NCBI GenBank assembly: GCA_018814885.1
Contig: JAHIYU010000075.1
Coordinates: 8,852-72,851 of the forward strand
Direction of reading: 5' to 3'
DNA: 64,000 nucleotides
Source: a bacterium
GTDB taxonomy: Bacteria > Krumholzibacteriota > Krumholzibacteriia > LZORAL124-64-63
Shown: positions 1 through 48,205 of the stretch, in pieces
How the letters are laid out: each line of letters starts with the position of its first letter
How positions within the stretch are numbered: position 1 is the first letter of the stretch
The notes under the pieces: model-generated
Databases searched by the model: none
The model's input: only the letters and a program-made list of their open reading frames with translations
Told to the model about the DNA's origin: nothing
Program-made: the position numbers and the translations under genes

Positions 1-496
1 TGGCGGCCAGGCTCCACAGCACGAGAAAGGCGTATCCCCGCGCCTCCTGGCTATACCAGATGTGGAAAGGGCTGATGGCCAGCAGGAGGGCGGCCCATTC
101 GCCGCAGCGGCGATCTCCCAGCTCCTGGCCCAGGCGCATGATCAACGGGACGGCAGCCACGCCCGCCACGGCGGCGGGCAGGCGCATGAGGAATTCGGAG
201 AGGTTGTCCCGGACGAAAGGCCAGAGCACGGCCATGTACAGGGGACCCTGGATGTTGTCGCGGAACTGCTCCCAGAAGCCGTGCCCCGGCCCCGGGTTCA
301 CCATGCGCCAGGTGAAGACCTCGTCGATCCAGAGCGAATCGGCGCCGAGGCGGTAGAATCTCAGCACCGCCGCCAGCAGGATCACTAGCGTCACGTAACG
401 CCAGTCGGCCTCGCCGTCCGCTGCGCGCCCCGTCCGCGACCGCCAGGGATTCTCCACCGGGCGGGCCGTGAGGCTCCCTCCGCGCTCGGATCTCAC
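1..496 (-). CDS. GT-C fold glycosyltransferase, ArnT/PMT_2-like (N-terminal ~165 aa only; C-terminus lies before window start)
   Basis: Manual minus-strand translation; this frame is absent from the ORF track because it has no stop inside the window. It reads VETRSERGGSLTARPVENPWRSRTGRAADGEADWRYVTLVILLAAVLRFYRLGADSLWIDEVFTWRMVNPGPGHGFWEQFRDNIQGPLYMAVLWPFVRDNLSEF... A basic stretch, a first TM helix and a following DE motif are typical of ArnT/PMT N-termini. A GTG at 496 overlaps the upstream stop (GTGA). Confidence 0.5.
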   Translation of the reverse strand, partial: MRSERGGSLTARPVENPWRSRTGRAADGEADWRYVTLVILLAAVLRFYRLGADSLWIDEVFTWRMVNPGPGHGFWEQFRDNIQGPLYMAVLWPFVRDNLSEFLMRLPAAVAGVAAVPLIMRLGQELGDRRCGEWAALLLAISPFHIWYSQEARGYAFLVLWSLAA

Positions 497-1308
497 CTCG
501 GTCCGGCTTCCGGCAACGTTTCACCCATGGTGAACTCCTTCAATGAAGCGTCGATGGCGCCGACCTTGACCTTGGTCTTCATCAGCACCGGCAAGCGGCG
601 CTCGTCCGCGGTCAGCCAGATGGTCAGCTTGCCTTCGAACTGGAACAGGCCTTCACCGAGAATGATCGGCTCCACCTTGAAGCAGTCGAAAGTCCCGGCC
701 GGCACACTCACGGTCTCGCGACCGTGCACGATCACTTCCAGATCGTAGTTCTTGTGGGAGCTGTGGGTGTGAATGAACGCGCTGGCGCCCGGCTGCAGAT
801 CCATGGTGCGCACGAAATAGAAGGCCGAGAGGATATCGTGCACTCCGAACGGGATCTCCAGCTCGCGCCGATCCGCATAGTGGGCCACACCCGCCTCGTG
901 ATCGAACCTGATGGCGATGTTCTTGCGGTAGTCCCCCTCCCGCAGGCGCTTGCTGAAGTATCGACTGAACAGGGTCTCGGCGTCGATGTGCGACACGACC
1001 TTGTCGCGGACCATGTAGAAAGCCGAGAAGAACCTGTTCGAGATGGCCTTGCTCTCGACGCGATAGCACAACCGGCCGTCCGATTCGACCATGTCGCGAA
1101 CCTCGAGCGAGGCTTCTCCCGCGTTCACCGGACCGTAATCGATCGAGAAGAGCAGGAACTCACCGGGTGCGTACGGGACGCGGGCATAGGCCGGTTTCGG
1201 ATCAGATACGGCCGAATCCGTGGCAGCCAACGCACCCATGGCGACGGACGCGCCGGCCGGGACCAGCCAGCAGCCAAGGAACGTCACGATTCGTAGAAGT
1301 CCATTCAT
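493..1308 (-). CDS. secreted hypothetical protein (DUF3108-like), signal peptide
   Basis: 271-aa ORF with an N-terminal hydrophobic signal (LLRIVTFLGCWLVPAGASVAMG) and protein-like composition; the family assignment is by recollection only. Confidence 0.6.
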   Translation of the reverse strand: MNGLLRIVTFLGCWLVPAGASVAMGALAATDSAVSDPKPAYARVPYAPGEFLLFSIDYGPVNAGEASLEVRDMVESDGRLCYRVESKAISNRFFSAFYMVRDKVVSHIDAETLFSRYFSKRLREGDYRKNIAIRFDHEAGVAHYADRRELEIPFGVHDILSAFYFVRTMDLQPGASAFIHTHSSHKNYDLEVIVHGRETVSVPAGTFDCFKVEPIILGEGLFQFEGKLTIWLTADERRLPVLMKTKVKVGAIDASLKEFTMGETLPEAGPR

Positions 1309-1320
1309 GAAGAAATCCGA

Positions 1321-2391
1321 TCAACTGTCGGCTGCGTCCACCGTCCGCACGCCGCTGAGGACCTGGCGCACCGCCTCGGCGACCATCTCCGCGCTAAGTC
1401 TCGTCATGCACGGATGGTCGGGCAGGGGGCACAGCGGCAAATCGCACGGTGAACAGTCTTCACCCGTCCGGACGGCAACATGCAAGGGGTGTTCCGGGTT
1501 CCAGCCGCCCGGATCGGTCGGGCCGAAGAGCGTGACCGTCGGCACGCCCATGACCGCCGCCAGGTGGCGGGGCCCGCTGTCGGTGGCGACGAGGACGTCA
1601 AGCCGGCCCACGAGATCGGCCAGCTCGCACAGATCCGTCGGCGGGGGACAGATGATCTCCGGCACTTCGGCCAGCAGAGGCGCCAGGACGGATTCCTCCC
1701 CGGGACCCGGCAGCAGCACGACCGTCGTGCCCTCGCGCAGGATAATCCGCGCGAGGCGCGCCGCAGCCGCGAGTGGCCACGACTTGGCCGGCCAGGTCGC
1801 ACTGAGCACCAGTCCGAGGCGGGGACGGGCCCGCGCTTCCAGCCGCGCCCGCCAGCGGAGGTAGGGGCCGCCGAGTTGCGAGTCCGCGAAATCAAAACGT
1901 CCCCTCGGCAGCCACGGGAGGAGCGACAGGCCCAGCGCGCGCAAGGGATCGAGGAAACTCTCGCCCGCGAACTGGCGCAGCGACAGGTCCCGCGACCGGT
2001 TGCGCGGCACGCGCACGTTGTAGGCCCAGCTGCGCCAGCGCAGATCGTATCCCACCCGCCAGCGGGCACCGCTAAGGGCCGTCCAGAGCGCCGTCTGCGG
2101 AGTGCTCAGGAAATCGATCACCAGATCGTAATGCCGCCGCCTCAACATGCCTATCCAGGCCAGCGCGCCCAGTCTGTCGCGCTCATCCCAGGCCAGCACG
2201 TTCACCCCCGCGCGGGAGCCGAACAACTTCGCCAGGGAACGATCCACGACCAGATCCAGTTCGGCATCGGGCAGGGCCTCGTGGAGGGACAGCACCGCAG
2301 GCAAGGTGACCAGCGCGTCGCCCAGCGCCCGCCGCCGGATCATCAGGACCCGCCGTGGCGCGGCGATCGACAGCGATCCGGCCTCTCTCAT
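1321..2391 (-). CDS. glycosyltransferase family 9 (LPS heptosyltransferase-like)
   Basis: The N-terminus MIRRRALGDAL... and the C-terminal DSGPRHLAAVMGVPTVTLFGPTDP motif are diagnostic of GT9. I chose the internal ATG at 2391 because it forms an ATGA 4-nt overlap with the upstream stop at 2388. Confidence 0.8.
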   Translation of the reverse strand: MREAGSLSIAAPRRVLMIRRRALGDALVTLPAVLSLHEALPDAELDLVVDRSLAKLFGSRAGVNVLAWDERDRLGALAWIGMLRRRHYDLVIDFLSTPQTALWTALSGARWRVGYDLRWRSWAYNVRVPRNRSRDLSLRQFAGESFLDPLRALGLSLLPWLPRGRFDFADSQLGGPYLRWRARLEARARPRLGLVLSATWPAKSWPLAAAARLARIILREGTTVVLLPGPGEESVLAPLLAEVPEIICPPPTDLCELADLVGRLDVLVATDSGPRHLAAVMGVPTVTLFGPTDPGGWNPEHPLHVAVRTGEDCSPCDLPLCPLPDHPCMTRLSAEMVAEAVRQVLSGVRTVDAADS

Positions 2392-3551
2392 GGCTTCTCC
2401 CCGCTCGCGAGGTGAAGTGCGGCGATCGCGTCCATGACCTGGCCGGGCGTCAAGGCGGGGAGACAGACGAAGTCGCCGCATTCGTGCAGGTCACAGGGGT
2501 GGCAGCGAGGGCGCGTGCACAGGGCCCGGTAGGGCCCGAAGGATCCGTAGGGGAACCAGATGTCGGGATCGGTCGGTCCCAGCAGCGCGACTGTGGGCCG
2601 GGCCAGGGCCACGGCCGCGTGCATCAGTCCCCCGTCCACGGTGATCACGAGTCCGCTGTGAGTGACCGCGGCCAATGCGTCGTCGAGGGACAGGGGCGGG
2701 AGACAACCGCCGTGGGGCAACCCCGAACGAGCCAGGGCGGCGCGGTAGGCGTCGCCGCCGTCGGGGGGTGGGAGCATCACGACCGGTCCGCGTCCGTCGT
2801 CCGCGAGGGCGCGCGCAAGCCGCCGCCAGTTTTCGGGCGGCCAGGCCTTGGACGGCCAGGTCGCACCGGGTACGAGCAGCGTGTAACCGCGCGGCGACTC
2901 CACACCCAGGTCGTGCAGGGCGCTACGGACTTTCCGGCTCATGGCGAAGGGATGCAGAACCGGTCCCAGCCCGACGGGAAACTCCTCGAGATACCAGGCG
3001 CGAAAATCCAGCCCGCTAGGATGGTGCCGCAAGGGCAGCAGGCGCCCCAGGTGCTCGCCGAGCGCGCCGGGTGCCGCCCGGCGGAACGTCTGGTCCGCCG
3101 CCGGCGCAGGTACTTTCGGGGCGTGGGTGAAGAGCCGGCTGCGGATGCCCCGTGCGCCGCCGATCCGGAACCGGGAGCCGGAGAGTCGCATCAGCCAGGC
3201 GCTGCGGGGATTGTAGAGGAGGTCCACGCCGAGGTCGTAACGGCGGCGGCGCAGTTCGCCGACGGTATGCCAGGTGCCGCGGCCACCGGGTGCCTGCACT
3301 CCCCGGGCGAACCGGCGCGCGGCGGCATCCGGTCCCCGGCGCGTGCTCACCAGTGCGTGGACCCGCGAGAGGCAGGGATGGTCCCTCAGGAGGGGCGCGC
3401 CCTGCGATTCGCAGAGGTACCCCAGGTCCAGGTCGGGATCGCCTCGGCGCAGTACCTGGAGCACGACGGTGGACATGACGATGTCGCCCAGATAGCGCAA
3501 CCTGGAAACCAGCACCGAGCGCAGCCGCACGCCGTCCACCTGCCAGCTCAA
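2388..3551 (-). CDS. glycosyltransferase family 9 (LPS heptosyltransferase-like)
   Basis: N-terminus RLRYLGDIVMSTVVLQVL and C-terminal DGGLMHAAVALARPTVALLGPTDP; the start overlaps the upstream stop by 4 nt. Confidence 0.8.
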   Translation of the reverse strand: MSWQVDGVRLRSVLVSRLRYLGDIVMSTVVLQVLRRGDPDLDLGYLCESQGAPLLRDHPCLSRVHALVSTRRGPDAAARRFARGVQAPGGRGTWHTVGELRRRRYDLGVDLLYNPRSAWLMRLSGSRFRIGGARGIRSRLFTHAPKVPAPAADQTFRRAAPGALGEHLGRLLPLRHHPSGLDFRAWYLEEFPVGLGPVLHPFAMSRKVRSALHDLGVESPRGYTLLVPGATWPSKAWPPENWRRLARALADDGRGPVVMLPPPDGGDAYRAALARSGLPHGGCLPPLSLDDALAAVTHSGLVITVDGGLMHAAVALARPTVALLGPTDPDIWFPYGSFGPYRALCTRPRCHPCDLHECGDFVCLPALTPGQVMDAIAALHLASGEKP

Positions 3552-4096
3552 GTATTCAGCTCCCCCAGGATGTCGTCCACGGCACGCGCCAGATCGTCCA
3601 AGATCTTCACGCGCCAGACGGGATCCACGTCACGCGCCGTCTCGCGGCCCCGGCCCGTCTCGACAAGGTAAGTGCCCATGCCGAAATGGCGACCGAGCTC
3701 GAGGTCCGAGAGCTTGTCGCCGATGATCCACGCGCGCTCAGAATGCCAACGGAGCCGGCGAGCCGCGGCGTCCAGCATACCGGGACGCGGCTTGCGGCAG
3801 TTGCAGTCGTCCTCGGGCGCGTGAGGGCAATAGTAGACGCCGTCCAGCGCCACACCCTCGGCGGCCAGGAGGGCATCGACGCGCTCCTGCACCGCCGCGA
3901 ACTCGCGCTCCGAATAGTAACCTCGGCCGATGCCCGACTGGTTCGTCACGACCACCAGGCGCAGACCGGCGGCAGCGGCGCGCGCCAGGGCCGCGGCGAC
4001 CCCCGGCAGCAACCTCACCCGGGCAGGGTCGCTGATGTATTCCGTGTCCTCGATGATGACGCCGTCCCGGTCGAGGAAGAGGATCGGTGCCGCCGT
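3548..4096 (-). other. GmhB (HAD-IIIA) domain portion of the fusion protein
   Basis: DRDG, TNQSG and CxH...CxCRKPxPGM motifs; boundary estimated by residue count. Confidence 0.7.
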
Positions 4097-5227
4097 CATC
4101 CCGGGCGTGTCCGGCGGGGGTTCGCGGCAGCAGGAGGGACCTGATCCCGGCACCATCGAGAGCGCGTCCGCCGCCCCGAGTATCCGCCGCGCGGCGATGC
4201 TGTCCAGGCAGAAGCTCTCCCGGGGACACGACGGCAGGTAGCAGGGCTGACAGGGGAATCCCTCGGCGCGTACCGAGGTCGCCGCCGGTCCGCGCGGACG
4301 GGTCCAGGCGGTGCTCGTGGAACCGTAGATGCCCACCGTGGCCTTGCCCAGGGCGGCCGCGAGATGCATCAGGCCGCTGTCGTTGCCGACGAAAACCGCC
4401 GCCTCCCGCAGTAGCGAAGCAACCTCGACCAGGGACGTGCGGCCCACGAGATCGTGACAGCCGGGCTGCTCGCCAAGGCGGTCCCGCCACGGACGATCGA
4501 CCAGCGAGCGCACCCTCCTCGCCGTGCCGCTCGCAGCGATGTCGCCGATCAGGGCCACGCGTACATCGTCTCGCGCGAGCAGTTCTGCGATCAGTTCCGC
4601 CTGCCGTTGCGGCGGCCAGGATTTGGCGTCGCCGTAAGTGGCGCCCACGGACAGCAGCCACAACGGCGGCTTCGAGTCCACATCCCTCTCACCTGGATTC
4701 GCGACACCGGCCCCCAGACGGGGATACGGTGGCACCGGATGGGCCGGCGGCTGGCAACCCAGGCAGTCCCGGGCCCAGGCCCGATAGAGCAGGCCCAACT
4801 CCTCGGTGTAGTGCATGGTGCCTCGCGGCGGACGTGCGACGGGCGCGGTGAGCAGCAGGGAGCGGGCGTCCCCCCTGAACCCGATTCGCGCTGGGATGCC
4901 GGATATGCGGGCGACGACGGCGGCGCGCAGGGAGGGCGGCAAAAGCATGACGGCCGGGTACTTCCCTCTGCGCCACTCCGCAGCCTGGCGCCAGACACCC
5001 CGCCAACCGGCATGCCGCCCCCGGCGTGAGTATCGGATCACTCCGGACAGCCTCGGGTCGTCCGCCAGCAGGGGCAGCCAAGCCTCGCGGACGGACACGT
5101 GCAAGTCCGGACAAGGAAGATCGAGATCCCGCTCGCCCGCGGCGAAGAGCTCCAGCAACGAGGTGGCCATGACCAGATCGCCGAGCCAGTTCGGCGCCGC
5201 CAGGAGGAGGGTCATGCGCCGGGCCAT
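3548..5227 (-). CDS. fusion: GT9 heptosyltransferase-like domain (N) + D-glycero-D-manno-heptose 1,7-bisphosphate phosphatase GmhB domain (C)
   Basis: N-terminal NWLGDLVMATSLLELF... and GNDSGLMHLAAALGKATVGIYGSTS are GT9 motifs. The C-terminal ILFLDRDGVIIED...VVVTNQSGIGRGYY...YYCPHAPEDDCNCRKPRPGML is the HAD-IIIA GmhB signature, including the Zn-binding Cys/His cluster. Confidence 0.8.
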   Translation of the reverse strand: MARRMTLLLAAPNWLGDLVMATSLLELFAAGERDLDLPCPDLHVSVREAWLPLLADDPRLSGVIRYSRRGRHAGWRGVWRQAAEWRRGKYPAVMLLPPSLRAAVVARISGIPARIGFRGDARSLLLTAPVARPPRGTMHYTEELGLLYRAWARDCLGCQPPAHPVPPYPRLGAGVANPGERDVDSKPPLWLLSVGATYGDAKSWPPQRQAELIAELLARDDVRVALIGDIAASGTARRVRSLVDRPWRDRLGEQPGCHDLVGRTSLVEVASLLREAAVFVGNDSGLMHLAAALGKATVGIYGSTSTAWTRPRGPAATSVRAEGFPCQPCYLPSCPRESFCLDSIAARRILGAADALSMVPGSGPSCCREPPPDTPGMTAAPILFLDRDGVIIEDTEYISDPARVRLLPGVAAALARAAAAGLRLVVVTNQSGIGRGYYSEREFAAVQERVDALLAAEGVALDGVYYCPHAPEDDCNCRKPRPGMLDAAARRLRWHSERAWIIGDKLSDLELGRHFGMGTYLVETGRGRETARDVDPVWRVKILDDLARAVDDILGELNT

Positions 5228-5240
5228 GGCGACCTCCTCG

Positions 5241-6308
5241 TCAACGCGCGCTCCGCACGGCCTCGACAGCTTCCATCAACGTCTCGATGTCCACGCGCTG
5301 GCCGCCCTTGACGCGCAGAACGCGGACGTGCGGATAACCGTCGGGCACCCAGGATGCATCGTCCTCCTTGAGAAAGAGTCCGAGCGTGGGCACGCCCGTC
5401 GCGACCGCGAAATGGAAGAGGTCCGTGTTGCCCGCGATGAACAGATCGCACAACGCGGCCAGCAGGACCGTATCGAAGAGGGTCTCGCGCGGCAGGCTGA
5501 GGGGCGGTACGGTCAACCCGGACTCGAAGCGCTGCAGCAGCTCCGGGTCGGCGTCGATGCTCAGGGGCAGGGTACGGCATGGCATCTGGCTGGCCAGCTG
5601 GTTCATGACGAAATGGAGGTTCTGGGCCGCTAGGCCGACGCCGGCTTTGCCGAGCGCGGGATCGACGCCCACCAGCACCTCGTCCTGCCGCGGTTTGTTG
5701 AAATGGATGAGCTGGCGCATGCGGCGCACGCGCTCCTCGGGCAGGGGCCAGGCGCGGTCGCGGGAGAAGGCCGGCAGCCCGAGGAAGGGCGCGGCGGCGG
5801 AGAGCCTCTCGCCGCGGTAGCGGTCGTCTGGCTCGCGCTGGCGTATCTCGAAATTGACGGCGGGGAAGGAACCGCCATGGGAAGGGCCGAGTCGCAGCTT
5901 CGCGCCGCTGGCCAGGGCTACGGCCTCGAGACCGGCCTGGGGCGTAAACGACATGACCACGCTCAGGTCGTACTCGCGCTTGCGGACGTTTTTGAGCAGG
6001 GAATACATGCCGGGGCTCCACGGCTGCAACTGCCGCCGCCGGTAGACGAGGCAGTGGTGTGCGATGCCGCTCGGCGCGATCAGCGGAGCATGCTCCTCGG
6101 GAATCAGGAAATCGATGCGCGCACGGGGATACTCTTCCCGCACCGTCTGCAACAAGGGCATGTGGAAGAGCAGATCGCACAGGTCTCCGTTGTCTATGGC
6201 CAGCAGGCGGGATTCCATGCCCAGGGTGCCCGGAAGGCTGAAGGCCCCCGCCTCGCCCCTGGCGATGAAACGTCCCAGAAGACCGGTCAAGAAGCTGCCG
6301 TCCACCAC
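5241..6308 (-). CDS. glycosyltransferase family 9 (divergent heptosyltransferase-like)
   Basis: C-terminal AGNTDLFHFAVATGVPTLGLF matches the GT9 C-domain. The ORF start is a GTG; an alternative ATG (MESRLLAIDNGDL) lies at 6218. Confidence 0.7.
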   Translation of the reverse strand: MVDGSFLTGLLGRFIARGEAGAFSLPGTLGMESRLLAIDNGDLCDLLFHMPLLQTVREEYPRARIDFLIPEEHAPLIAPSGIAHHCLVYRRRQLQPWSPGMYSLLKNVRKREYDLSVVMSFTPQAGLEAVALASGAKLRLGPSHGGSFPAVNFEIRQREPDDRYRGERLSAAAPFLGLPAFSRDRAWPLPEERVRRMRQLIHFNKPRQDEVLVGVDPALGKAGVGLAAQNLHFVMNQLASQMPCRTLPLSIDADPELLQRFESGLTVPPLSLPRETLFDTVLLAALCDLFIAGNTDLFHFAVATGVPTLGLFLKEDDASWVPDGYPHVRVLRVKGGQRVDIETLMEAVEAVRSAR

Positions 6309-6339
6309 CGTCCACCCTTCCTCGTGCGTCGGATCATCG

Positions 6340-8727
6340 TCATTCCGCGAGTGCGGGGAATATCTCCGCGAACACCTCGTCCACGTGCTTCACGCAGACG
6401 AAAGTGATGTCCTTGGCCGCCTCTTCGGGGATGTCTTCCAGGTCCGCCTCGTTCTGGTTGGGCATGATGATCTTGCGTATGCCCGCCCGGTGTGCGGCCA
6501 GCACTTTCTCCAGCAGTCCGCCGATGGGCAGGACATCGCCGGTCAGGGTGATCTCGCCGGTCATCGCCGTGCGCCTGTCGATGGCCTCGCCCACCATCAG
6601 CGAGAAGAGCACGGAGGCCATCGTGATACCTGCGCTGGGTCCGTCCTTGGGGATGGCGCCGGCGGGGATGTGGATATGGATGTCCAGATCCTTGAAGAAA
6701 GCGGCGTGTTGCGACTGCGCGCCCCACTGGCCGCGCAGATAGGAGTACGCGGCGTTCGCCGATTCCTGCATCACGCTGCCCAGCTGGCCGGTCAGTTTCA
6801 ACTGTCCGCTGCCGTTGGGCAACGTCACGCCCTCCAGGTAGAGGATCTTGCCCCCTACGGAAGTCCAGGCCAGACCAGTGGCCACACCTACCTTGGTCCG
6901 GCTGCGCAGCCGGTCTGGGTCGTAGTCTGCGTGACCCAGGTAGTCCACGAGGTTCTTGGCGGAGATCACCTGGCGCTTCCGCTTGCCGCGGGCGACCATC
7001 TTGGCGACCTTGCGGCATACGCTGCCGATCTTGCGCTCGAGTTCACGCACCCCGGCCTCTCGCGTGTAGCCGGCGATCAGAGCGCGAACCCCCGCGTCGG
7101 TGAATCTGATGTACCGTCCGGTCAGTCCGTTCTCCTCCACCTGGCGCGGCACCAGGTACCGCTTGGCGATTTCCATCTTCTCCAGGTTGGTGTAACCCGG
7201 CAGGTTGATAACCTCCATGCGGTCGAGCAGGGGGCGCGGGATGGTGTCCATCATGTTCGCGGTGGTGATGAACAGGACATGGGACAGGTCGAAGGGCACC
7301 GATATGTAATGGTCGGTGAACGAATTGTTCTGCTCGGGGTCCAGCACCTCCAGCAGGGCGCTGGCCGGGTCGCCGCGGAAGTCCTGGCCGAGCTTGTCGA
7401 TCTCGTCCAGCATGATCAGGGGATTGTTGGTGCCGCAATCCTTCAGGCCGGTGATGATGCGGCCGGGCATGGCGCCGACGTAGGTGCGCCGGTGCCCCCT
7501 GATCTCCGCCTCGTCGCGCATGCCGCCGAGCGAGAAGCGGAAGAACTCACGTCCGATGGCGTCCGCGATGCTGCGCCCCAGCGACGTCTTGCCGACGCCC
7601 GGCGGTCCCACGAGGCAGATGATGGGGCCGCGGTGATCGCCCTTCAACTTGCGCACCGACAGGAACTCAAGGATGCGCTCCTTCACGTCCTCCAGACCGT
7701 AGTGGTCCCGCTCGAGGATCTTCTCGGCCCGCTTGATGTCCAGCTTGTCCTCGGAACTCGCCAACCAGGGCAGATCTAGCAGCCAGTCGATGTAGGTCTT
7801 GCTGACCGTGTATTCGCTGGCTCCCGGCGACATGCGGGAGAGGCGGCTCACCTCCTTCTCCGCCGTCGTGCGCACGTGCTCGGGGAGATCGGCCTGGGCC
7901 AGCCGCTCGTTCAGGTCCTCGATCTCCACCGACGTGTCGTCCGTATCGCCCAGCTCGCGCTGGATCGCCTTGAGCTGCTGCCGCAGATAGTACTCGCGCT
8001 GATCCTTGTCTATGGATTTGCGCACCTTGGTCTGGAGCTTCTGCCCGAGCTCCACGACCTCGAGCTCCCGGACCACGATCTTGGCCAGGATCTGCAGCCG
8101 CTCGAGCGGCGCCACGGCTTCCAGCACGGACTGCTTCTCGTGGACGTCGATGTCCAGATTTGTGGCGATGAGGTCCGCGAGTCGCCCAGGGTCGTCTATG
8201 TTCATCACCACGATCTTCAGCTCGTCCGAGAGGGTCTCGCTGGCGTCCACGATCTTCAGGAAATTGTTGGCCACGCCGCGCATGTAGGCCAGCGTCCTGG
8301 GATCGTTTGCCGTTTTCTCCGGGACGGCTTCCACCGCCGCCTTGAGATAGGGCTTGTCGGTGATGAACTCCTTGATGCGGATGCGCGCCACGCCCTGGCC
8401 GAGCAGGCGCATGCTGCCGTCGGGGAAGCGCAGCATCTTCTGGATCTTGACAGCGGTACCGATATGGTAGAGCAGCTCCTCTCCCCGCGTTTCGGCTTCC
8501 TCCCCGTCATCGCTCTCATCCAGTTCGCGCTGCGCGAAGGCGCCCAGGATCTTGTCGCTCGCCAGGCAGTCGTCAGCGAGCTGGATGAGGTTCTCGTCGC
8601 TCAGCACCAGAGGCACCATCATGTAGGGGAAGATGACTGCTTCGCTGATCGGCAGCACAGGTAATATTTCCGGAACGAAGCCCTCGCCCTGTTCGGTGTC
8701 CATGCTGTTGGTCTCGTCGTTCATCAA
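6340..8727 (-). CDS. lon: ATP-dependent Lon protease
   Basis: 795 aa with an N-terminal LON substrate-binding domain, a Walker A motif [11 protein letters not shown], and a C-terminal proteolytic domain containing [15 protein letters not shown]. Confidence 0.95.
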
Positions 8728-8745
8728 GAGGTATCCTCTTTGCGG

Positions 8746-9204
8746 TTACTTGTCCCCGCCGTCGACGTCGATGCGCCTACGGCCCTTTTCCCGACGATCT
8801 CCCTTGCGGAACGTGACGTAGAGGAACCCATTGCGGTAGCGCGCCACAGCACTCTTTGCGATCACCGGCACGGGTATCATCAGACGTCTCGCGAACGGGC
8901 CGACATTTATCTCCATCTTGAAGTAATGCTTCTTCCCCGCCGGCGCGATGTCGCTGCGGGCGCCGCGTATCGTCAAGCTGTCGCCGTCCGTCAACACCTC
9001 GATGCCGGTCGGATCCATGCCGGCCAGATCGATCTGGACGATGAACTCAGCGTCCGTCGTATAGGCGTCTGTCGCCGGGCGCCATGAGAGATCTTCATCC
9101 AGACCGAGCGGACGCGTGGCCCGCGAATAGGAGGTCACAAGTATCTCGAATATGTCGTCCATCTGACCTGGACCATCCGGTTTGAGCTCTCCGCTGATGA
9201 TCAT
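8746..9204 (-). CDS. Hsp20/alpha-crystallin family small heat-shock protein
   Basis: 152-aa C-terminal part of ORF 8746..9798 carrying the alpha-crystallin domain (FIVQIDLAGMDPTGIEVLTDGDSLTIRG...NGFLYVTF). The ATG at 9204 is preceded by GGGGGAGGA. The longer N-terminal extension is Arg/Gly-rich junk overlapping the neighbouring gene. Confidence 0.8.
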   Translation of the reverse strand: MIISGELKPDGPGQMDDIFEILVTSYSRATRPLGLDEDLSWRPATDAYTTDAEFIVQIDLAGMDPTGIEVLTDGDSLTIRGARSDIAPAGKKHYFKMEINVGPFARRLMIPVPVIAKSAVARYRNGFLYVTFRKGDRREKGRRRIDVDGGDK

Positions 9205-9260: not shown

Positions 9261-10202
9261 TCAACCTCTGCGCGGGGGCAGGATGGGGGGCGCGTCGTCC
9301 CGATAAGAGCCATGGGCCAGGAGCGTCTCCACCTCCGTCGCGCAGGGCAATCCGGCCCTGCCGCCATACGCCCGGCATTGCAGGGCCGCGACCGCCGCCC
9401 CGCAGCGCAGGCTGGCCGCGAATCCACCGCCGGCGGCCAGGGACCACGCGTAGCCGGCGTGAAAGGCGTCGCCTGCACCGGTCGTATCCACCACCTGCGT
9501 CACGAAGGCCGGGACGTAGCGAAAACCATCGCCGTCCAGTCCCAGGACCCCGGCCCGCCCGAAGGTGGTGCCGACACGGAGGGGCCCCTGTCCGCGCAGA
9601 CGCCTCAAGGCCTCCCTCTGATCCGCGATCCCGTTCAGGGCACAGGCAAAACCCGTGGCGCCGATCACGTCGGTACAATGCGCCACGAGTTCGGGGACGC
9701 CGGCCTTCACGGACCCCGCATCCAGCACCACCGGCAGCCCTCGACGCCGAGCAGCGAAGGCGAGGACCGCGGCCGCCGGAGCTTCGTGCGAATCGCACAG
9801 CAGGAGATCCGCGCCGGCGAGCCAGGACGCGTCCACGCCGGCGGGGTCGTAGCGGGGCAGATCGCCCCGCTCCCAGTAGATCCGGCGTTCCCCGCTGCGC
9901 GGATCGACGCGGATGACCGCCAGGGGCGAGCGCGAATGTGCGGCCGTCCGGATCAGCGAGACGTCCACGCCGGCGGTTTCCAGCTCCGTCAGATGCGCTC
10001 GCCCGAACGCGTCATCCGACATTACCGACACCAACCGCACCCTGGCACCGAGCTTGCTGAGCGCGATCGCCGCGTTGGCCGCCGGACCGCCCCCGCAGGT
10101 CACCATGGGCGACACCTCGGTCTTCGAATCCGGCGGCGGGGTTTCCGCAAGCGGGAAGATCAGATCCCATGCGCTGTAGCCGACGACGATGACCGTCTTC
10201 AT
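9261..10202 (-). CDS. PfkB/ribokinase-family carbohydrate kinase
   Basis: GGGPAANAAIALSKLGA (motif 1) and VVDTTGAGDAFHAGYA (motif 2); start chosen at MKTVIVVG. Confidence 0.8.
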   Translation of the reverse strand: MKTVIVVGYSAWDLIFPLAETPPPDSKTEVSPMVTCGGGPAANAAIALSKLGARVRLVSVMSDDAFGRAHLTELETAGVDVSLIRTAAHSRSPLAVIRVDPRSGERRIYWERGDLPRYDPAGVDASWLAGADLLLCDSHEAPAAAVLAFAARRRGLPVVLDAGSVKAGVPELVAHCTDVIGATGFACALNGIADQREALRRLRGQGPLRVGTTFGRAGVLGLDGDGFRYVPAFVTQVVDTTGAGDAFHAGYAWSLAAGGGFAASLRCGAAVAALQCRAYGGRAGLPCATEVETLLAHGSYRDDAPPILPPRRG

Positions 10203-10296
10203 GGATACCGCCCGTTGCCGCACCGCGAGCGGCATGTTACCGTGGGAAAGGACTCATGCACGATTCCCACCCAAACCAGATGTCGCGAGGTCGCAC

Positions 10297-10700: not shown

Positions 10701-11213
10701 TCAGCTCACGCCGTAGATGCCACGTCCCTTGCGCTTCAGAAGCTTGCTCGTCGAGAGCGTGCGCCGCAGCACATTGGCGAAGTTCTTGCTCTTGGTCTTC
10801 ACCAGCTTCTTCCGGTTGATCGTGGTCAGGATGTCCTGGAACTTCATGGGTTCGCCGCGTTTGCGGATCAGGTCGGCGACCACGGTCTCCACGGTCTGCC
10901 GGCCCGCGGCTTTCCGGCGCACCGGAGCCTTCTTGCGGGTAGCGGCCTTGCGGACGGTTTTCTTCGCGGCTGCGGGCTTAGCCCTTGTCGCCTTCTTGCG
11001 TGTCGCCTTCGTGCGCTTGACAGCCTTGGCGCCCCGGAGCGCCTTCTTGTCGCCCTTGACCAGCTTGGCTATCTGGATCTCTATCTTTGCCAGTTCCTTT
11101 TCCAGCTGCGACTTGCGTTTCTCCAGGGTAGACAGCTTCTCCTTGACGGACAGCAGGTGCCGCAGTTCGTCCAACGACAGGCCGGCCGCCAGGACCTTCA
11201 ATGAGCGGGACAT
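10701..11213 (-). CDS. lysine/alanine-rich histone H1-like nucleoid protein
   Basis: N-terminal coiled-coil, a KKAxRKKA repeat region, and a C-terminal basic domain. The true start is probably the second ATG, since the first codons, GTGGAGGTAGAA, themselves form the Shine-Dalgarno sequence. Confidence 0.7.
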   Translation of the reverse strand: MSRSLKVLAAGLSLDELRHLLSVKEKLSTLEKRKSQLEKELAKIEIQIAKLVKGDKKALRGAKAVKRTKATRKKATRAKPAAAKKTVRKAATRKKAPVRRKAAGRQTVETVVADLIRKRGEPMKFQDILTTINRKKLVKTKSKNFANVLRRTLSTSKLLKRKGRGIYGVS

Positions 11214-11255
11214 TTCTACCTCCACGCCTGAGTGGTTTGCGTTAATATTACACCG

Positions 11256-13038: not shown

Positions 13039-13317
13039 CTATTTCACGAGCGACATCTTGACGGTCGCGTCGGCTCCTCCGGTGCGCGCCCTCAGGAAGT
13101 AGACTCCGCTGGCCTGAGGTTGCCCGCGGTCGTCGCGCCCCTCCCAGGTGACGGAGTGCCAGCCCGGCGAGACGGTGCCCTGGTGAAGGCTGCGTACGCG
13201 CCTGCCGGCCATGTCGTAGACGTCCACCCGCAGATCCACCTCGCCCGCGTCGCCCGGGATGTAGAGCTTGACCTCCGTGCTCGGGTTGAAGGGGTTGGGG
13301 TGATTCGGCTGCAAAGT
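13039..13317 (-). other. T9SS type-A C-terminal sorting domain (Por_Secre_tail-like) of the C25 protein
   Basis: TLQPNHPNPFNPSTEVKLYI...VYDMAGRRV...WEGRDDRGQPQASGVYFLRARTGGADATVKMSLVK. Confidence 0.7.
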
Positions 13318-16300
13318 CAACCGCGAGGGCTTCGGGATGTCCGGCACCTCGGTGGTGCTCAGGATCCTGAAGACGCCGTCGCGCAGGTTGTTGCCGCGGA
13401 AGGTCAGCCAGGGGGCCTCGGTGCCGTCGAAGGCATAGGGCATGTCCCATACGTGGATCAACAGATCCCAACCGCCGTAGACGATGTCTACGTCATGATC
13501 CCTGTCGAGATCGCAGATCACGGGTGTGGGATTGACCGGTCCGCCGAGCGAGAGCGGGAAGCCCTCCACGTCCGTACCGTCGTGCTTGAAGGCGTACAGG
13601 TTGTTGGGCGACTCTGTGTTGCCGCCGCCGATGCCGAACAGGATGTCCAGCATGCCGTCGCCGTTGATGTCGCCGACCACGGGGTTCGAATTCGAGTTGC
13701 CGGGCACCATGATCGGCCAGCCGGGCATGGTCTCGCCGCTCGTGCCGCCGACGTAGTCCGTGTCGATCAAGTGCACGTACGACTCGAGGCTGCCGAAGAC
13801 CTCGACCGCCACGATCTCGAGTTCGCCATCGTCGTCGAAATCGCCGACCGCCGGACTCGGGCAGGTGCGGTCGCCGTTGTCGCTCTGGGCCCGGAAGTAG
13901 ATCGGGAATCCGGTATAGTACGAGCCGTTCTCGTGCACGACGTGAAGCTGGTCGTCCTCCGAGACGAAGATGATCTCCCAGATTCCGTCCGCGTCCAGGT
14001 CGGCCACCGTGGGACTGACCATGATGCTGCCGCCGCCCCCGGTCTCGATGGGGAAGCCGGGCAACTGGGTACCGTCCCAGCGGTAGGCGCGCAGCGAGTT
14101 GGTGGTCTCCCATCCGTAGCGCGTGCCGAAGATGATGTCCTTGGCGCCGTCGTGGTCCAGGTCGAAGAGGGCGGGCCCGGAGCGGTTCCAGCCGGCCCAC
14201 GAGAGTTCGGCCGTACGATCGATGAGCGGCCCGTTGGTGGCGGGGTTGCTGTCGCCGTCGCGAACCTCGGTGCCGTCGGCGTGCCAGGCCAGTGTGACCC
14301 GATTCAGGTTGTTGCAGACGATCTCCGGCTCGCCGTCGCCGTCGATGTCGCCCACGGCTGCCGGCGCCCAGACCCAGCCCGCACCTGTCGACTGGGGCCA
14401 CCCCGGCAGCAGGGTGCCGTCGGACTTGAAGACGTAGATGAGCTTCAGGTCGCGGTCGGAGCAGATGATCTCCGCGCCGGGCTCGCCGTCCAGCTCGGCC
14501 AGGGTGACGGCCATCGCGGTCAACCGGCCCGTGAGGTTGGTGATGGGACCGCGCGTCTGGGCGTTGTCGTCGCCGTCGAACAGCTCGCCGCCGTCCTCGG
14601 TCCAGACGTACACCTCGTCGGCCGTGAGCACCACTTCCAGACGGCCGTCGCCCGTCACGTCGCCGACAGCGCAGTGGCTGTCGGTCTCGCGACCGAAGGG
14701 CAGGGGAAAATCGCCCGTCTCCGGGGGTGCCGTGCTCTTGGCGAACGGATCTGATTGGTCTCCCTCGATCAGCGAGGTATTCACGGCCGAGACGCGGTAG
14801 TAGTAGCGGGTCAGCAGATCGAGCCCGGAGTCGCGGAAGTAGGAGATCCCCTCCAGGAGATCGACGTTGGCCCGCGCGTAGGGGCCGCCTTCGGCATCAC
14901 TGCGATACACGTGATAGCCGCGTGCGTCGTCACCAGCCACCGGGTCCCAGACCAGCTCGATCACGTCGGCGCCCAGGGTCAGGCCGGAATCGATGCCCTG
15001 CGGCACGTCCGGATCGACGATCTGGAAGTCGTGGGTGAAGGTCCGCCCCATGTTGTCCACGAAATCGATCCGTGCGTCGTAGGCCTGGGACGTGTCGATG
15101 ACCGCCATCGAGAAGAGGGCGGCGCCGTTGGACGTGTCCATCAGGGCGAGTCCCGTATACGTCACCACGGTGTCGTGAAGCGTGACGTTGGGGCTGTTGG
15201 TCCGCAGGTATCCCGTGATCATGTCGGCGAAACCCGCACCGAAATTCTTGAGACGCAGAACGATGGAGATGCGCTCGTTGTCGTCCACGATGCCGTCGCT
15301 GTTGCCGTAGAAGGTGTCGAACCAGGTCAGGGCGATGGGCTCGACTTCCGGGGCCATCATGGTCGCCCCCCACTCGCTGAACCAGGACGAGCCGCCGTCG
15401 TCGACCTCGATCGTGAAGTCCAGGTTCATGCCGTCCCACATCAGCTGATGCGCCGCGACCAGGAACGGAGCGCTCGCGGCGACGGATCCACCGGAAGGCA
15501 CGTCGGGCACCGCGACCACGCCGACGTTGAGCACCAGACCGGGCGTGGTGGTGGTCAGGGTCGCGGTCAGGCCGGTGGCTCCGCCCGTGCCGGTATCCTC
15601 GAAGCGCGCGGCGAGGGCCACAGTCTCTCCCGCCTCGATGACCCCGTTGCCGTTGCCGCTCGAGCCGAGCGTGCCGTCATCGATGACGGTCATCGATTCC
15701 AGCGCGATATAGGCGCCGGGATTGGAGACCGTCACCGTCACCGATGTCTGCTCGATGTTGGTGCCGTTCACGGTCAAGGTGAGATCGCCGCCCTCGGTCA
15801 GGGTGACGGGCAAGGCGACCTGTCCGACGCCGTCGGTGACGTCGCGCACGTAGACGCCGCCGGTCCGGGCGAGGGTGACCCGCGCGCCGACGACGGGTGA
15901 GCCGCCGGATGTGACGGTCACGTTGACCGTCTGCTGGCCGGTCACGAGGCTGCCGGGCGCGGCGATGACGACCGCCGCCGGGTCCGCGGTCCACATTTTC
16001 TGGGCGGGGTCGCCCAGCAGGGTGTAGTTCATGTAGGTCCAGCGCGTGAAGCTGTTGGTGGAGGCGAAATCGAGCCAGGGCAGTCGGCTCAAGGTCATCA
16101 GGTCGCCGAGTCGCGGCTCTCCCTCACACATCAGCTGATTGAAGAACTCGACCTGGAAGTCGTTGGCCGTGGAGGGAAAGGCGGCGCGGCTGGCGCCGAT
16201 GGAGGCGAAGGAGCCGCCATTGGGGTTCTGCACGAAACGTTCCATGAGGCACGAGTAGTCGAAGGCGGCGGATGCGCAGTTCAACGCATACATGAGGAAC

Positions 16301-21656: not shown

Positions 21657-21724
21657 TTGACCACCGCTCCGTCGGCGGTTCTTGCAACTCGCACCGTATG
21701 GCAAGCTCCGCGGGGTGGCAACGA

Positions 21725-40602: not shown

Positions 40603-40614
40603 AACCGCCCTCCC

Positions 40615-42681
<2,067 letters not shown>

Positions 42682-42685
42682 AACG

Positions 42686-43497: not shown

Positions 43498-43518
43498 GTC
43501 CTCTTGCCTCCCGAAACG

Positions 43519-44022: not shown

Positions 44023-44058
44023 GTCCTCATACCTTCACCGGGAACCGCCGCGCGTCTT

Positions 44059-46895: not shown

Positions 46896-46899
46896 GTCG

Positions 46900-48204: not shown

Positions 48205-48205
48205 T

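What the first reader, a model, noticed from the sequence alone, without database searches (positions are those of the whole stretch)
1..6308. Tandem array of four GT9 (heptosyltransferase-type) paralogs with DUF3108 and an ArnT/PMT-like GT-C gene, all translationally coupled
Four consecutive GT9 genes (1321-6308) are followed on the same strand by a secreted DUF3108-like protein and a GT-C glycosyltransferase. Their junctions show ATGA/GTGA 4-nt overlaps at 496, 2391 and 3551. Classical LPS inner cores use two or three GT9s (WaaC/F/Q), which are usually interspersed with other genes. Four adjacent paralogs plus a lipid-A-type GT-C transferase suggest an unusual heptose-rich core or another heptosylated glycoconjugate.
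Basis: partly seen in the sequence, partly recalled or inferred. Interest (0 to 1): 0.65.

Follow-up and report, generated by a model that had tools for sequence, protein, structure and literature searches.

The report
Conserved heptosyltransferase operon in Krumholzibacteriota
This is a real, tightly packed cell-envelope sugar-building operon, most likely for the inner core of lipopolysaccharide, that is conserved across the uncultured phylum Krumholzibacteriota; it is a lineage-specific variant of a familiar kind of gene cluster, not a new system.

Summary
On the minus strand lie four intact, anciently diverged GT9 genes (25-31% pairwise identity), then a secreted DUF3108 protein and the start of a PMT_2-type GT-C. 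Three corrections apply.

- The first GT9 (A, 5241-6308) falls below Pfam's cutoff and is publicly named "hypothetical". It is GT9 by profile-profile comparison, but its donor-binding motifs are altered.
- The second (B, 3548-5227) is a WaaF-like heptosyltransferase fused to a complete GmhB heptose-bisphosphate phosphatase.
- The 3551 junction is TTGA, and two junctions are 12-13 nt gaps rather than overlaps.

The order Lon-A-B-GmhB-C-D-DUF3108-GT-C-PGT-ACPS recurs in about 70 Krumholzibacteriia genomes. Fusion occurs in 12 of 62 loci, and C or D is missing in 12 of 57. A similar Nitrospira fusion sits beside lpxB-msbA-waaA-lpxK.

The DUF3108 model has a LolA/RseB/LprG-like lipid-binding fold. 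The GT-C is not demonstrably ArnT or lipid-A-specific.

Best reading: ADP-heptose-dependent LPS inner-core assembly plus a periplasmic polyprenol-sugar module (confidence about 0.6). The rival is a non-LPS, carrier-linked heptoglycan. Whether the phylum has lpx or waaA genes could not be checked. Interest is modest.

The parts
5241..6308 (-). A: divergent, lineage-specific GT9-like glycosyltransferase (355 aa, GTG start). The canonical D-S/G-G donor motif is replaced by invariant N294-T295-D296, the WPxK lysine is not conserved, and there is no GPT motif and no 4-Cys knuckle.
   Evidence: PF01075 gives 17.8 bits, below the cutoff of 22. hhalign against the C/D profile gives 98.9% probability over 293 columns. 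Six orthologs are 47-79% identical, including a conserved N-terminal extension. The subfamily is small, with 16 representatives at E<=1e-30 among 1.84 billion proteins. It is present in all 57 complete loci. Its public name is 'hypothetical protein'.
4100..5227 (-). B, N-terminal domain: WaaF-like (heptosyltransferase II-type) GT9, residues about 1-360, with an invariant Cys326/329/334/340 knuckle.
   Evidence: PF01075 gives 119 bits. TIGR02195 gives 135.4 against a cutoff of 134.6. PDB 1PSW (WaaF) matches at E 3e-22. The AF2 model has pLDDT 91.7, and its best Foldseek hit is 1PSW at TMt 0.77. The invariant residues are listed.
3548..4099 (-). [quoted passage not shown] It has the DRDG, TNQSG, CPH...CNCRKP and GDKxSD motifs.
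   Evidence: NF006506 gives 177.1 against a cutoff of 178. TIGR01656 gives 150.9 against 84, and TIGR01662 gives 123.5 against 44.6. PDB GmhB entries 4PNH, 2GMW and 3L8H match at E 1e-30 to 8e-33. Foldseek to 3L8H gives TMt 0.92 and rmsd 1.6. The motifs were read from the sequence. GmhB is a separate gene in 50 of 62 related loci.
2388..3551 (-). C: GT9 glycosyltransferase (387 aa, TTG start overlapping B's stop as TTGA), with a 4-Cys knuckle at residues 350-363.
   Evidence: PF01075 gives 98 bits. The best equivalog is TIGR02193 (HepI) at 93.3 against a cutoff of 185. PDB WaaC 2GT1 matches at E 4.5e-14 over the C-lobe only. The 4-nt overlap with B is kept in relatives.
1321..2391 (-). D: GT9 glycosyltransferase (356 aa, ATG start overlapping C's stop as ATGA), with a 4-Cys knuckle at residues 313-328. 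It is the paralog that aligns full-length to WaaC.
   Evidence: PF01075 gives 100 bits. TIGR02193 gives 89.6 bits over residues 14-343. PDB 3TOV matches at 7.6e-14, and WaaC at 1e-11 over residues 14-295. D is absent in 10 of 57 complete related loci.
493..1308 (-). DUF3108 protein (271 aa) with an N-terminal hydrophobic signal and a LolA/YmcC-like open beta-barrel. It is predicted to be a periplasmic lipid- or glycolipid-binding protein.
   Evidence: PF11306 gives 150 bits. The AF2 model has pLDDT 83.4. Foldseek hits are 3FZX at 3.8e-6, DUF1849 (6NTR) at TM 0.57-0.66, then RseB, LprG and LolA. The hydrophobic N-terminus is shown. Across the phylum it is 53-83% identical, more conserved than the GTs.
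1..496 (-). GT-C glycosyltransferase, N-terminal 165 codons only (GTG start overlapping the DUF3108 stop as GTGA). The full protein is 538 aa: PMT_2 family, at least 8 TM segments, an invariant W-I-D-E loop-1 motif and a soluble C-terminal domain of about 130 aa.
   Evidence: The full length is in L001 9430-11046. PF13231 gives 41.9 against a cutoff of 26.1. The invariant D58/E59 are shown, and the hydropathy. It has no ArnT model hit and no PDB sequence hit. NCBI names it 'GT family 39'.

Best explanation
The region is the 5' two-thirds of a phylum-conserved envelope-glycan operon of a Krumholzibacteriota bacterium. Its order is lon | A - B::GmhB - C - D - DUF3108 - GT-C - PGT - acpS.

Most likely mechanism:
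- The four soluble GT9 enzymes act at the cytoplasmic face of the inner membrane. They extend a lipid-anchored acceptor, most probably Kdo-lipid A, which would make this the LPS inner core. The donor is ADP-glycero-manno-heptose.
- B is the WaaF-type enzyme. Its fused GmhB domain supplies the phosphatase step of ADP-heptose synthesis.
- D, or the lineage-specific A, is the candidate for the first transfer. C and D add accessory residues that some lineages lack.
- After export to the periplasmic face, the PMT_2 GT-C adds a sugar from a polyprenyl-phosphate donor to the glycolipid or to another envelope acceptor.
- The LolA-like DUF3108 protein would bind the lipid-linked substrate or product.
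- The PglC-like phosphoglycosyl transferase primes a carrier-linked glycan that feeds the same envelope pathway.

Shown: gene content, domain identities, the fusion, the folds and the conservation. Inferred: the acceptor, which GT9 acts first, the sugar specificity of A, C and D, and the roles of the GT-C and DUF3108.
For: - B reaches the HepII equivalog cutoff, and its best solved-structure relative is E. coli WaaF.
- The GmhB domain is of the beta (ADP-heptose) type, not the alpha (GDP-heptose) type: 177 bits against 89 bits. Its catalytic and metal-binding motifs are intact.
- In unfused relatives, GmhB sits between B and C with 4-nt overlaps. This ties the operon to heptose.
- The homologous Nitrospira GT9-GmhB fusion lies directly after lpxI-lpxB-msbA-waaA-lpxK.
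- The GT9s have no TM segments, the GT-C has at least 8, the PGT has one re-entrant helix, and DUF3108 has a signal sequence.
- The operon order is conserved in 57 of 57 loci spanning Lon to PhzF. A is always present and B is detected in 55 of them.
- The DUF3108 fold groups with the lipid and LPS binders LolA, LprG and RseB.
- The same window carries WecA-like, GT4, Wzy_C (O-antigen-ligase family) and Wzz-like genes. These imply a lipid-linked surface glycan and a ligase that needs a core acceptor.
- There is no promoter or terminator signal above chance inside the cluster.
Against: - No lpx, waaA, kds, gmhA, hldE or hldD gene is in the 64-kb window. The rest of the genome could not be searched, so LPS production by this phylum is assumed, not shown.
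- C and D reach only about half the HepI cutoff, and A reaches none. No clear WaaC equivalent is therefore identified, and D, the most WaaC-like, is dispensable in 10 lineages.
- A has Asn in place of the donor-site Asp and lacks the conserved Lys.
- The synteny block also includes housekeeping genes (lon, acpS). Conserved adjacency alone therefore does not prove a shared function.
- The closest DUF3108 relatives outside the phylum (Eisenbacteria) sit with polysaccharide export and PGT genes, not with GT9 or GT-C genes.
- No polyprenyl-phosphate-sugar synthase (GT2) for the GT-C is seen in the operon.
Confidence: 0.6

Rival explanations
1. The operon builds a non-LPS heptose-containing glycan on a polyprenyl-pyrophosphate carrier. 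The PglC-like PGT primes undecaprenyl phosphate. The GT9 enzymes extend it in the cytoplasm. After flipping, the GT-C transfers or polymerises the glycan onto a protein, lipid or polysaccharide acceptor, with DUF3108 as a lipid-carrier chaperone. This would parallel the PglC...PglB logic of bacterial protein glycosylation.
For: - The PGT overlaps the GT-C by 4 nt and is conserved in the operon.
- The GT-C is not ArnT-like.
- A, C and D are not equivalogs of WaaC or WaaQ.
- DUF3108 relatives in Eisenbacteria lie among Bac_transf PGTs, Poly_export, WecG and Wzy_C genes.
- GT9-HAD fusions also occur in Gram-positive Micromonospora, so the pairing of GT9 with GmhB is not restricted to LPS.
Against: - B meets the WaaF equivalog cutoff and structurally matches WaaF best.
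- The Nitrospira fusion sits in an lpx/waaA cluster.
- From my own knowledge, no GT9 is known to act on a polyprenyl-PP acceptor, and PMT_2-type GT-Cs use monosaccharide-P-polyprenol donors rather than PP-linked oligosaccharides.
- The GT-C matches STT3 only weakly, at 18 bits below cutoff.
- No flippase is present in the operon.
Confidence: 0.17
2. The cluster is two or more unrelated functions kept adjacent by the generally frozen gene order of this phylum. Under this reading, A-B-GmhB-C-D is an ordinary LPS-core module. DUF3108, the GT-C (a protein O-mannosyltransferase-like enzyme), the PGT and AcpS each do something else.
For: - The conserved block runs from HIT, PfkB, Hsp20 and Lon through AcpS, PhzF and acyl-CoA dehydrogenase, which are clearly unrelated functions.
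- NCBI names the GT-C 'GT family 39', the protein-mannosyltransferase family.
- DUF3108 occurs without GT9 or GT-C genes in Eisenbacteria and next to unrelated genes in Burkholderiales (PMC4364669).
Against: - The 4-nt overlaps D..DUF3108..GT-C..PGT recur across relatives at 41-64% identity.
- There is no terminator or promoter signal between the modules.
- All the products are envelope-glycan related except AcpS.
Confidence: 0.18
3. A is not an active heptosyltransferase. It is either a pseudo-enzyme or scaffold for the other GT9s, or a GT9 that has switched to a different nucleotide-sugar donor. In either case the array holds at most three heptosyltransferases.
For: - The invariant N-T-D replaces the D-S/G-G donor motif.
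- The WPxK lysine is variable.
- The N-terminal GD aspartate is Cys in the L010 ortholog.
- The GPT motif and the 4-Cys knuckle are missing.
- The Pfam score is below cutoff.
Against: - A is the most universally retained GT9 of the operon, present in all 57 complete loci.
- It is strongly conserved, at 47-79% identity with 100 invariant positions. This shows selection for some function but does not say which.
Confidence: 0.35

Closest known systems
E. coli/Salmonella inner-core heptosyltransferases WaaC, WaaF and WaaQ (CAZy GT9; PDB 2GT1/2H1H, 1PSW)
   Same: Both have the GT-B fold and the N-terminal GD and C-lobe D(S/G)G...H...GPT motifs in B, C and D. B reaches the WaaF equivalog cutoff, and 1PSW is its best structural neighbour. 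From my own knowledge, waaF and waaC are also adjacent in E. coli.
   Different: - Four adjacent genes instead of two.
- Only 17-24% identity to the solved enzymes.
- C and D fall far below the HepI and HepIII cutoffs.
- B, C and D carry a 4-Cys knuckle absent from E. coli WaaC and WaaF.
- A lacks the donor motifs.
- B is fused to GmhB.
[quoted passage not shown]
   Same: All HAD-IIIA catalytic motifs and the Cys/His metal loop are present. It shares 35-39% identity with the solved enzymes and gives TMt 0.85-0.92.
   Different: Here it is the C-terminal domain of a heptosyltransferase. This fusion occurs in 12 of 62 Krumholzibacteriia loci, and also in Nitrospira. I found no paper describing such a fusion.
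Nitrospira GT9-GmhB fusion in the lpxI-lpxB-msbA-waaA-lpxK cluster (locus L008)
   Same: It has the same domain order, with 33-37% identity over 93-99% of B.
   Different: It sits in a classical lipid A/Kdo neighbourhood, followed by GT4 and GT2 genes. It has no A, C or D paralog array, no DUF3108 and no GT-C.
PMT_2 (PF13231) GT-C enzymes: ArnT, bacterial and eukaryotic protein O-mannosyltransferases (GT83/GT39), and Rhizobium RgtA-D
   Same: It is a polytopic membrane protein with an acidic D-E motif in the first periplasmic loop, and it passes the Pfam PMT_2 cutoff.
   Different: It has no ArnT-specific model hit and no PDB sequence match. No partner GT2 that would make the polyprenyl-P-sugar is in the operon. 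The acceptor is unknown.
DUF3108 / YmcC-like fold (PDB 3FZX) and the LolA-LprG-RseB lipid-binding half-barrel superfold
   Same: It is a Pfam DUF3108 member, and the model matches 3FZX, DUF1849, RseB, LprG and LolA. DUF3108 is described as a YmcC-fold outer-membrane or exported protein in PMC4364669.
   Different: No DUF3108 protein has a known function. The coupling to GT9 and GT-C genes is specific to Krumholzibacteriota.
TibC/Aah autotransporter heptosyltransferases (BAHT family, PDB 4RAP/4RB4)
   Same: Both have a GT9-like catalytic core and use ADP-heptose. Both have a four-cysteine metal site in the C-lobe (TibC Cys339/342/358/370, PMC4358343).
   Different: - TIGR04414 is not met.
- Foldseek TMt is only 0.50.
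- There is no N-terminal beta-barrel or beta-hairpin thumb.
- The Cys knuckle here is compact (CxxCx4Cx4-6C), and its homology to the iron finger is untested.

Membership tests
Glycosyltransferase family 9 (Pfam PF01075) | The whole-protein score reaches Pfam's gathering cutoff of 22 bits. | tested here: met
   B scores 119.3, C scores 98.1 and D scores 100.0 bits.
Glycosyltransferase family 9 (Pfam PF01075), gene A | The whole-protein score reaches Pfam's gathering cutoff, or homology is shown by profile comparison. | tested here: inconclusive
   A scores 17.8 bits, below the cutoff of 22. However, hhalign to the C/D profile gives 98.9% probability over 293 columns, and orthologs in L006 and L010 hit PF01075. 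A is therefore a homolog, with the donor motif D-S/G-G changed to N-T-D.
LPS heptosyltransferase II (WaaF/RfaF; NCBIfam TIGR02195 equivalog) | The score reaches the curated cutoff of 134.6 bits. | tested here: met
   B scores 135.4 bits over residues 7-356, which is borderline. The E. coli-specific model NF008162 gives only 90 against 569. The best PDB sequence and fold match is WaaF 1PSW.
LPS heptosyltransferase I (WaaC; TIGR02193 equivalog) | The score reaches the curated cutoff of 185.3 bits. | tested here: not met
   C scores 93.3, D scores 89.6, B scores 61.1 and A scores 28.0 bits.
LPS heptosyltransferase III (WaaQ; TIGR02201 / NF007742) | The score reaches the curated cutoff (170.2 or 467 bits). 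| tested here: not met
   The best score is C at 69.8 bits. A scores 32.1 bits.
Autotransporter O-heptosyltransferase (Aah/TibC; TIGR04414) | The score reaches the cutoff of 200 bits, and the protein has the N-terminal beta-barrel and thumb insertions. | tested here: not met
   Only B hits, at 21 bits locally. Foldseek TMt to TibC is 0.50, against 0.77 to WaaF.
GmhB, beta-anomer-specific heptose 1,7-bisphosphate phosphatase (NF006506; HAD-IIIA TIGR01662/TIGR01656) | The equivalog cutoff of 178 bits is reached, the HAD-IIIA domain cutoffs are reached, and the catalytic DxD, T/S, K and GDxxxD motifs plus the Cys/His metal loop are present. | tested here: inconclusive
   The equivalog score is 177.1 against 178, missing by 0.9 bit. 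The domain models pass clearly, at 150.9 against 84.15 and 123.5 against 44.6. All motifs are present. PDB GmhB matches at E 1e-30 to 8e-33, and TMt to 3L8H is 0.92. The alpha-type model NF050049 gives 89 against 250, so it is not met.
DUF3108 (Pfam PF11306) | The gathering cutoff of 26 bits is reached, and the fold is YmcC-like. | tested here: met
   The score is 150.3 bits. The model matches 3FZX at E 3.8e-6.
GT-C, PMT_2 family (Pfam PF13231) | The gathering cutoff of 26.1 bits is reached, the protein is polytopic, and an acidic motif lies in the first periplasmic loop. | tested here: met
   The full-length ortholog-identical protein in L001 scores 41.9 bits. It has at least 8 hydrophobic segments and invariant D58-E59. 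The 165-residue window fragment alone scores 19.4, below cutoff.
ArnT (lipid A 4-amino-4-deoxy-L-arabinose transferase) | The protein matches ArnT-specific models or solved ArnT, has a partner ArnC-type GT2 and Ara4N synthesis genes, and uses lipid A as acceptor. | tested here: not met
   No ArnT model appears among the NCBIfam hits at E<=0.01. There is no PDB sequence hit with the single sequence or the profile. No arn genes are in the operon. The acceptor is not testable here.
LPS inner-core biosynthesis operon | The organism makes Kdo-lipid A (lpx, kds and waaA genes), and the GT9 enzymes act on it. | not testable with these tools
   Only 64 kb of the window and 20-kb loci were available, and none holds lpx or waaA except the Nitrospira locus L008. 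Enzyme activity cannot be tested.
Translationally coupled operon | The stop and start codons of successive genes overlap or abut. | tested here: inconclusive
   Overlaps are TTGA at 3551, ATGA at 2391 and GTGA at 496. The spacers are 13 nt (A->B, with GGAGG) and 12 nt (D->DUF3108). The overlaps recur in relatives. Coupling itself was not measured.

The most novel reading that the evidence does not exclude
The operon is not an LPS-core cluster. It is instead a self-contained pathway for a new heptose-containing glycoconjugate. In this reading, a PglC-like PGT primes a polyprenyl carrier, and four GT9 enzymes extend it, including a lineage-specific one with a rewired donor site. A PMT_2 GT-C then delivers the glycan in the periplasm with help from a LolA-like DUF3108 lipid chaperone. 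This would give DUF3108 its first function and would extend GT9 chemistry to carrier-linked acceptors.
Probability: 0.12. Interest if true: 0.65.

Novelty: new variant of a known kind. Interest (0 to 1): 0.3.

Why it matters
If the main reading is right, this gives the first outline of how an uncultured FCB-group phylum, Krumholzibacteriota, builds its LPS core. That outline includes a heptosyltransferase fused to the heptose-pathway phosphatase, an unannotated GT9 subfamily (A) with a changed donor site, and a conserved genomic link between a DUF3108 protein and envelope-glycan enzymes. The last point offers a testable hypothesis for a domain of unknown function: binding of a lipid-linked glycan. 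None of this overturns current understanding. It is an incremental extension of well-known LPS and glycan biosynthesis.

Tried and rejected
- **PfkB kinase as HldA.** I tested whether the upstream PfkB kinase (9261-10235) is the heptose-7-phosphate kinase HldA. It is ribokinase-like (128 bits), and rfaE domain I gives only 40 against a cutoff of 345, so I rejected this.
- **TibC/Aah-type protein heptosyltransferases.** Rejected.
- **Recent tandem duplication.** Rejected, because pairwise identity is 25-31% and the four orthologous groups are cleanly separated.
- **Pseudogenes.** Rejected, because the ORFs are intact and conserved.
- **Structure of the full GT-C.** The homolog search with the 165-residue fragment returned only short fragments. 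PDB searches with the sequence and with a 6-member profile found nothing.
- **RNA elements and signals.** The Rfam scan of the whole window found no hits. The sigma-70 promoter and terminator scan of 1-9000 found nothing above chance. FCB-type promoters are not covered by that tool.
- **Literature.** I found nothing on LPS in Krumholzibacteriota and nothing on GT9-GmhB fusions. DUF3108 is mentioned only in passing.
- **lpx, waaA, kds and ADP-heptose genes.** I looked for them in the rest of the window and found none.

Full report
**What is in the sequence**

All genes of the finding lie on the minus strand, downstream of lon (6340-8727). Reading 5' to 3', they are:

| Gene | Coordinates | Size and start |
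|---|---|---|
| A | 5241-6308 | 355 aa, GTG start |
| B | 3548-5227 | 559 aa |
| C | 2388-3551 | 387 aa, TTG start |
| D | 1321-2391 | 356 aa, ATG start |
| DUF3108 | 493-1308 | 271 aa |
| GT-C | 1-496 | first 165 codons; the gene runs off the window |

The junctions are as follows:
- A->B is a 13-nt spacer containing GGAGG.
- B->C is a TTGA overlap.
- C->D is an ATGA overlap.
- D->DUF3108 is a 12-nt spacer.
- DUF3108->GT-C is a GTGA overlap.

The cluster is therefore compact but not uniformly overlapping, and the 3551 junction is TTGA rather than ATGA or GTGA.

**Family assignments**

- B, C and D score 98-119 bits on Pfam GT9, against a cutoff of 22. DUF3108 scores 150 bits.
- A scores only 17.8 bits, and NCBI names it 'hypothetical protein'.
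- A is nevertheless a full-length GT9 homolog. BLASTP to C and D covers about 325 residues at E 8e-11 and 5e-9. An ortholog profile of A matches a C/D profile with 98.9% probability over 293 columns. A's orthologs in two other genomes pass PF01075.
- The four proteins share only 25-31% identity, so they are old paralogs. HMMs built for each group separate them cleanly in other genomes, with about 450-600 bits to their own group against less than 115 to the others.

B is a fusion. Residues 1 to about 360 are a WaaF-like heptosyltransferase:
- TIGR02195 scores 135.4 against a cutoff of 134.6.
- PDB 1PSW matches at E 3e-22.
- The Foldseek best hit is 1PSW at TMt 0.77.

Residues 380 to 559 are a complete GmhB phosphatase:
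- NF006506 scores 177.1 against 178, and the HAD-IIIA domain models pass easily.
- PDB GmhB entries match at E 1e-30 to 8e-33.
- TMt to 3L8H is 0.92.
- The DRDG, TNQSG, CPH..CNCRKP and GDKxSD motifs are present.

The beta-type (ADP-heptose pathway) model scores twice the alpha-type model. The AF2 model of B is confident as a whole (pLDDT 91.7, pTM 0.91), which predicts a fixed arrangement of the two domains.

C is closest to WaaC, but only in its C-lobe. D aligns to WaaC over its full length. Both reach only about half the HepI equivalog cutoff. No paralog resembles TibC/Aah.

**Peculiarities of A**

Across six orthologs (47-79% identity, 100 invariant positions), the following differences from canonical GT9 appear:
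- The canonical C-lobe motif (T/V)D(S/G)G..H is replaced by invariant N294-T295-D296..H299.
- The lysine of the WPxK motif is not conserved.
- The GPT motif is replaced by G-L-F.
- One ortholog has Cys in place of the N-terminal GD aspartate.

A's subfamily is small. Only 16 representatives score E<=1e-30 among 1.84 billion proteins, followed by a continuum of ordinary GT9s at 21-30% identity. Yet A is present in every complete related locus. It is under selection, but it may use another donor or have a non-canonical role.

**Beyond the window edge**

An identical contig (GCA_018822565.1, L001) shows how the operon continues:
- The GT-C is 538 aa. It scores 41.9 bits on PMT_2 against a cutoff of 26.1, has at least 8 hydrophobic segments, an invariant W-I-D-E first-loop motif and a soluble C-terminal domain of about 130 residues.
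- It is followed, with a 4-nt overlap, by a 233-aa PglC-like monotopic phosphoglycosyl transferase (Bac_transf, 219 bits).
- Next comes holo-ACP synthase.

The GT-C has no ArnT-specific model hit, and no PDB sequence match with either the single sequence or a profile. The label 'lipid-A-type' is therefore not supported. NCBI calls the protein GT family 39.

**Conservation and taxonomy**

Exact and related copies come from metagenome-assembled genomes labelled 'bacterium', Candidatus Krumholzibacteriia/-ota, or (probably mislabelled) 'uncultured Fibrobacteraceae'.

A scan of species-representative genomes with a DUF3108 alignment found 543 loci, of which the best 80 were kept. I tabulated gene order with HMMs built from six orthologs per gene. 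The order Lon-A-B-GmhB-C-D-DUF3108-GT-C-PGT-ACPS-PhzF appears in essentially all 76 Krumholzibacteriia-type loci.

Among the 57 loci that span Lon to PhzF:

| GT9 genes detected | Loci |
|---|---|
| A, B, C and D | 43 |
| A, B and C (no D) | 10 |
| A, B and D (no C) | 2 |
| A, C and D (B not detected) | 2 |

GmhB is a separate gene, overlapping B by 4 nt, in 50 of 62 loci. It is fused in 12, including this window. The fusion is therefore a recent event inside the phylum.

A second set of GT9-GmhB fusions occurs in Nitrospira, at 33-37% identity. It lies immediately after lpxI-lpxB-msbA-waaA-lpxK. This is the strongest contextual link of this enzyme type to LPS.

**DUF3108**

- The protein has an N-terminal hydrophobic signal.
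- It is better conserved than the glycosyltransferases, at 53-83% identity.
- It models confidently (pLDDT 83) as an open beta-barrel.
- Foldseek places it with 3FZX (the YmcC-like fold), DUF1849, RseB, LprG and LolA. The last three are known lipid or LPS binders, from my own knowledge of those proteins.
- The only literature statement I found calls DUF3108 proteins YmcC-fold outer-membrane proteins of unknown function (PMC4364669).
- In Eisenbacteria, the nearest relatives lie among Poly_export, two Bac_transf PGTs, a polysaccharide deacetylase, WecG and a Wzy_C-TPR protein, with no GT9 or GT-C genes.

DUF3108 of this type thus recurs with envelope-glycan genes in two phyla, but its tie to GT9 and GT-C genes is phylum-specific.

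**Interpretation**

The best-supported model is an LPS inner-core operon. Soluble GT9 enzymes use ADP-heptose on a lipid-anchored acceptor at the cytoplasmic face. B is the WaaF-type enzyme and carries the pathway phosphatase. A periplasmic module follows: a GT-C using a polyprenyl-phosphate sugar, a LolA-like binder, and a PGT priming a carrier-linked glycan.

The window also carries genes consistent with a ligated surface glycan:
- a WecA-like gene at 20313-21704;
- a GT4 gene at 21725-22879;
- a Wzy_C O-antigen-ligase-family gene at 22873-24276;
- a Wzz-like gene at 57780-59405.

The weak points are these:
- I could not check whether the phylum has lipid A and Kdo genes, and none are in the window.
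- No paralog is a clear WaaC.
- D, the most WaaC-like paralog, is dispensable in ten lineages.
- The conserved block includes unrelated housekeeping genes.

The main rivals are a non-LPS, carrier-linked heptoglycan built in the PglC...GT-C manner, and mere co-location of unrelated modules.

**Novelty and score**

The enzymes are new members of known families. The architecture is a lineage-specific variant of LPS or glycan clusters. Its distinguishing features are four GT9 groups, a divergent and unannotated A, the GmhB fusion, and the coupling of DUF3108, GT-C and PGT. Four adjacent GT9 genes are not in themselves remarkable, and 'heptose-rich core' is not demonstrated. Interest is modest (0.3).

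Noticed in passing
window 4208-4252 (B Cys326-340), 2463-2504 (C Cys350-363), 1408-1455 (D Cys313-328), minus strand: B, C and D each carry a compact four-cysteine knuckle (CxxC-x4-C-x4-6-C) just after the Pfam GT9 domain. It is invariant in 36 B-family sequences, including Nitrospira. It is absent from A, and from E. coli WaaC and WaaF in the PDB alignments. TibC has a Cys4 'iron finger' in the same lobe, described as unique in PMC4358343. Possible homology or metal binding is untested.
   Followed up: partly
window 20313-24842, minus strand: This is a second envelope-glycan cluster. It holds a WecA/MraY-family transferase (20313-21704), a GT4 glycosyltransferase (21725-22879), a Wzy_C O-antigen-ligase/PglL-family protein (22873-24276) and a 189-aa protein with no family hit (24273-24842).
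   Followed up: partly
window 57780-59405, minus strand: A 541-aa protein has an N-terminal Wzz chain-length-determinant domain (28.7 bits, just above cutoff).
   Followed up: no
window 13039-18117, minus strand: A 1692-aa protein combines a Peptidase_C25 (gingipain-like) domain, FG-GAP repeats and a C-terminal FlgD_ig domain. Its ortholog in L005 has a weak Por_Secre_tail hit, which suggests type IX secretion cargo. It is syntenic across the phylum.
   Followed up: partly
window 37529-51399, minus strand: This is a complex I (nuo) operon. It includes a fused NuoC-NuoD protein (48772-50616, Complex1_30kDa plus 49kDa) and three antiporter-like subunits.
   Followed up: no
window 10701-11225, minus strand: A 174-aa Lys/Ala-rich, histone-H1-like basic protein has a weak HARE-HTH hit, below cutoff. 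A high-GC3 ORF on the opposite strand overlaps it, which makes gene calling ambiguous here.
   Followed up: no
window 26487-27869 (+) and 53233-55152 (+): The first is a PIN_4-PhoH fusion protein of 460 aa. The second is a full three-domain formiminotransferase-cyclodeaminase (FTCD) of 639 aa.
   Followed up: no
loci L011-L081 (record titles): Many species-representative genomes that carry this exact operon are titled 'uncultured Fibrobacteraceae bacterium', and a few 'Gemmatimonas' or 'Latescibacterota'. Syntenic ones are titled Candidatus Krumholzibacteriia. The titles look like inconsistent or automatic taxonomy labels.
   Followed up: no
loci L018, L034, L050: In these long-read-derived assemblies, the operon genes appear split into several ORF fragments, for example repeated B, C, GT-C and PGT hits. 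This is most simply explained by indel errors in the assemblies rather than by real pseudogenes.
   Followed up: no
one search hits P0104, P0111, P0113 (Micromonospora, Plantactinospora): Gram-positive actinomycetes encode proteins of 540-590 aa that combine a HAD-IIIA (GmhB-like) domain with a GT9 domain. The pairing of a heptose phosphatase with a GT9 is therefore not restricted to LPS producers. Their context was not examined.
   Followed up: no
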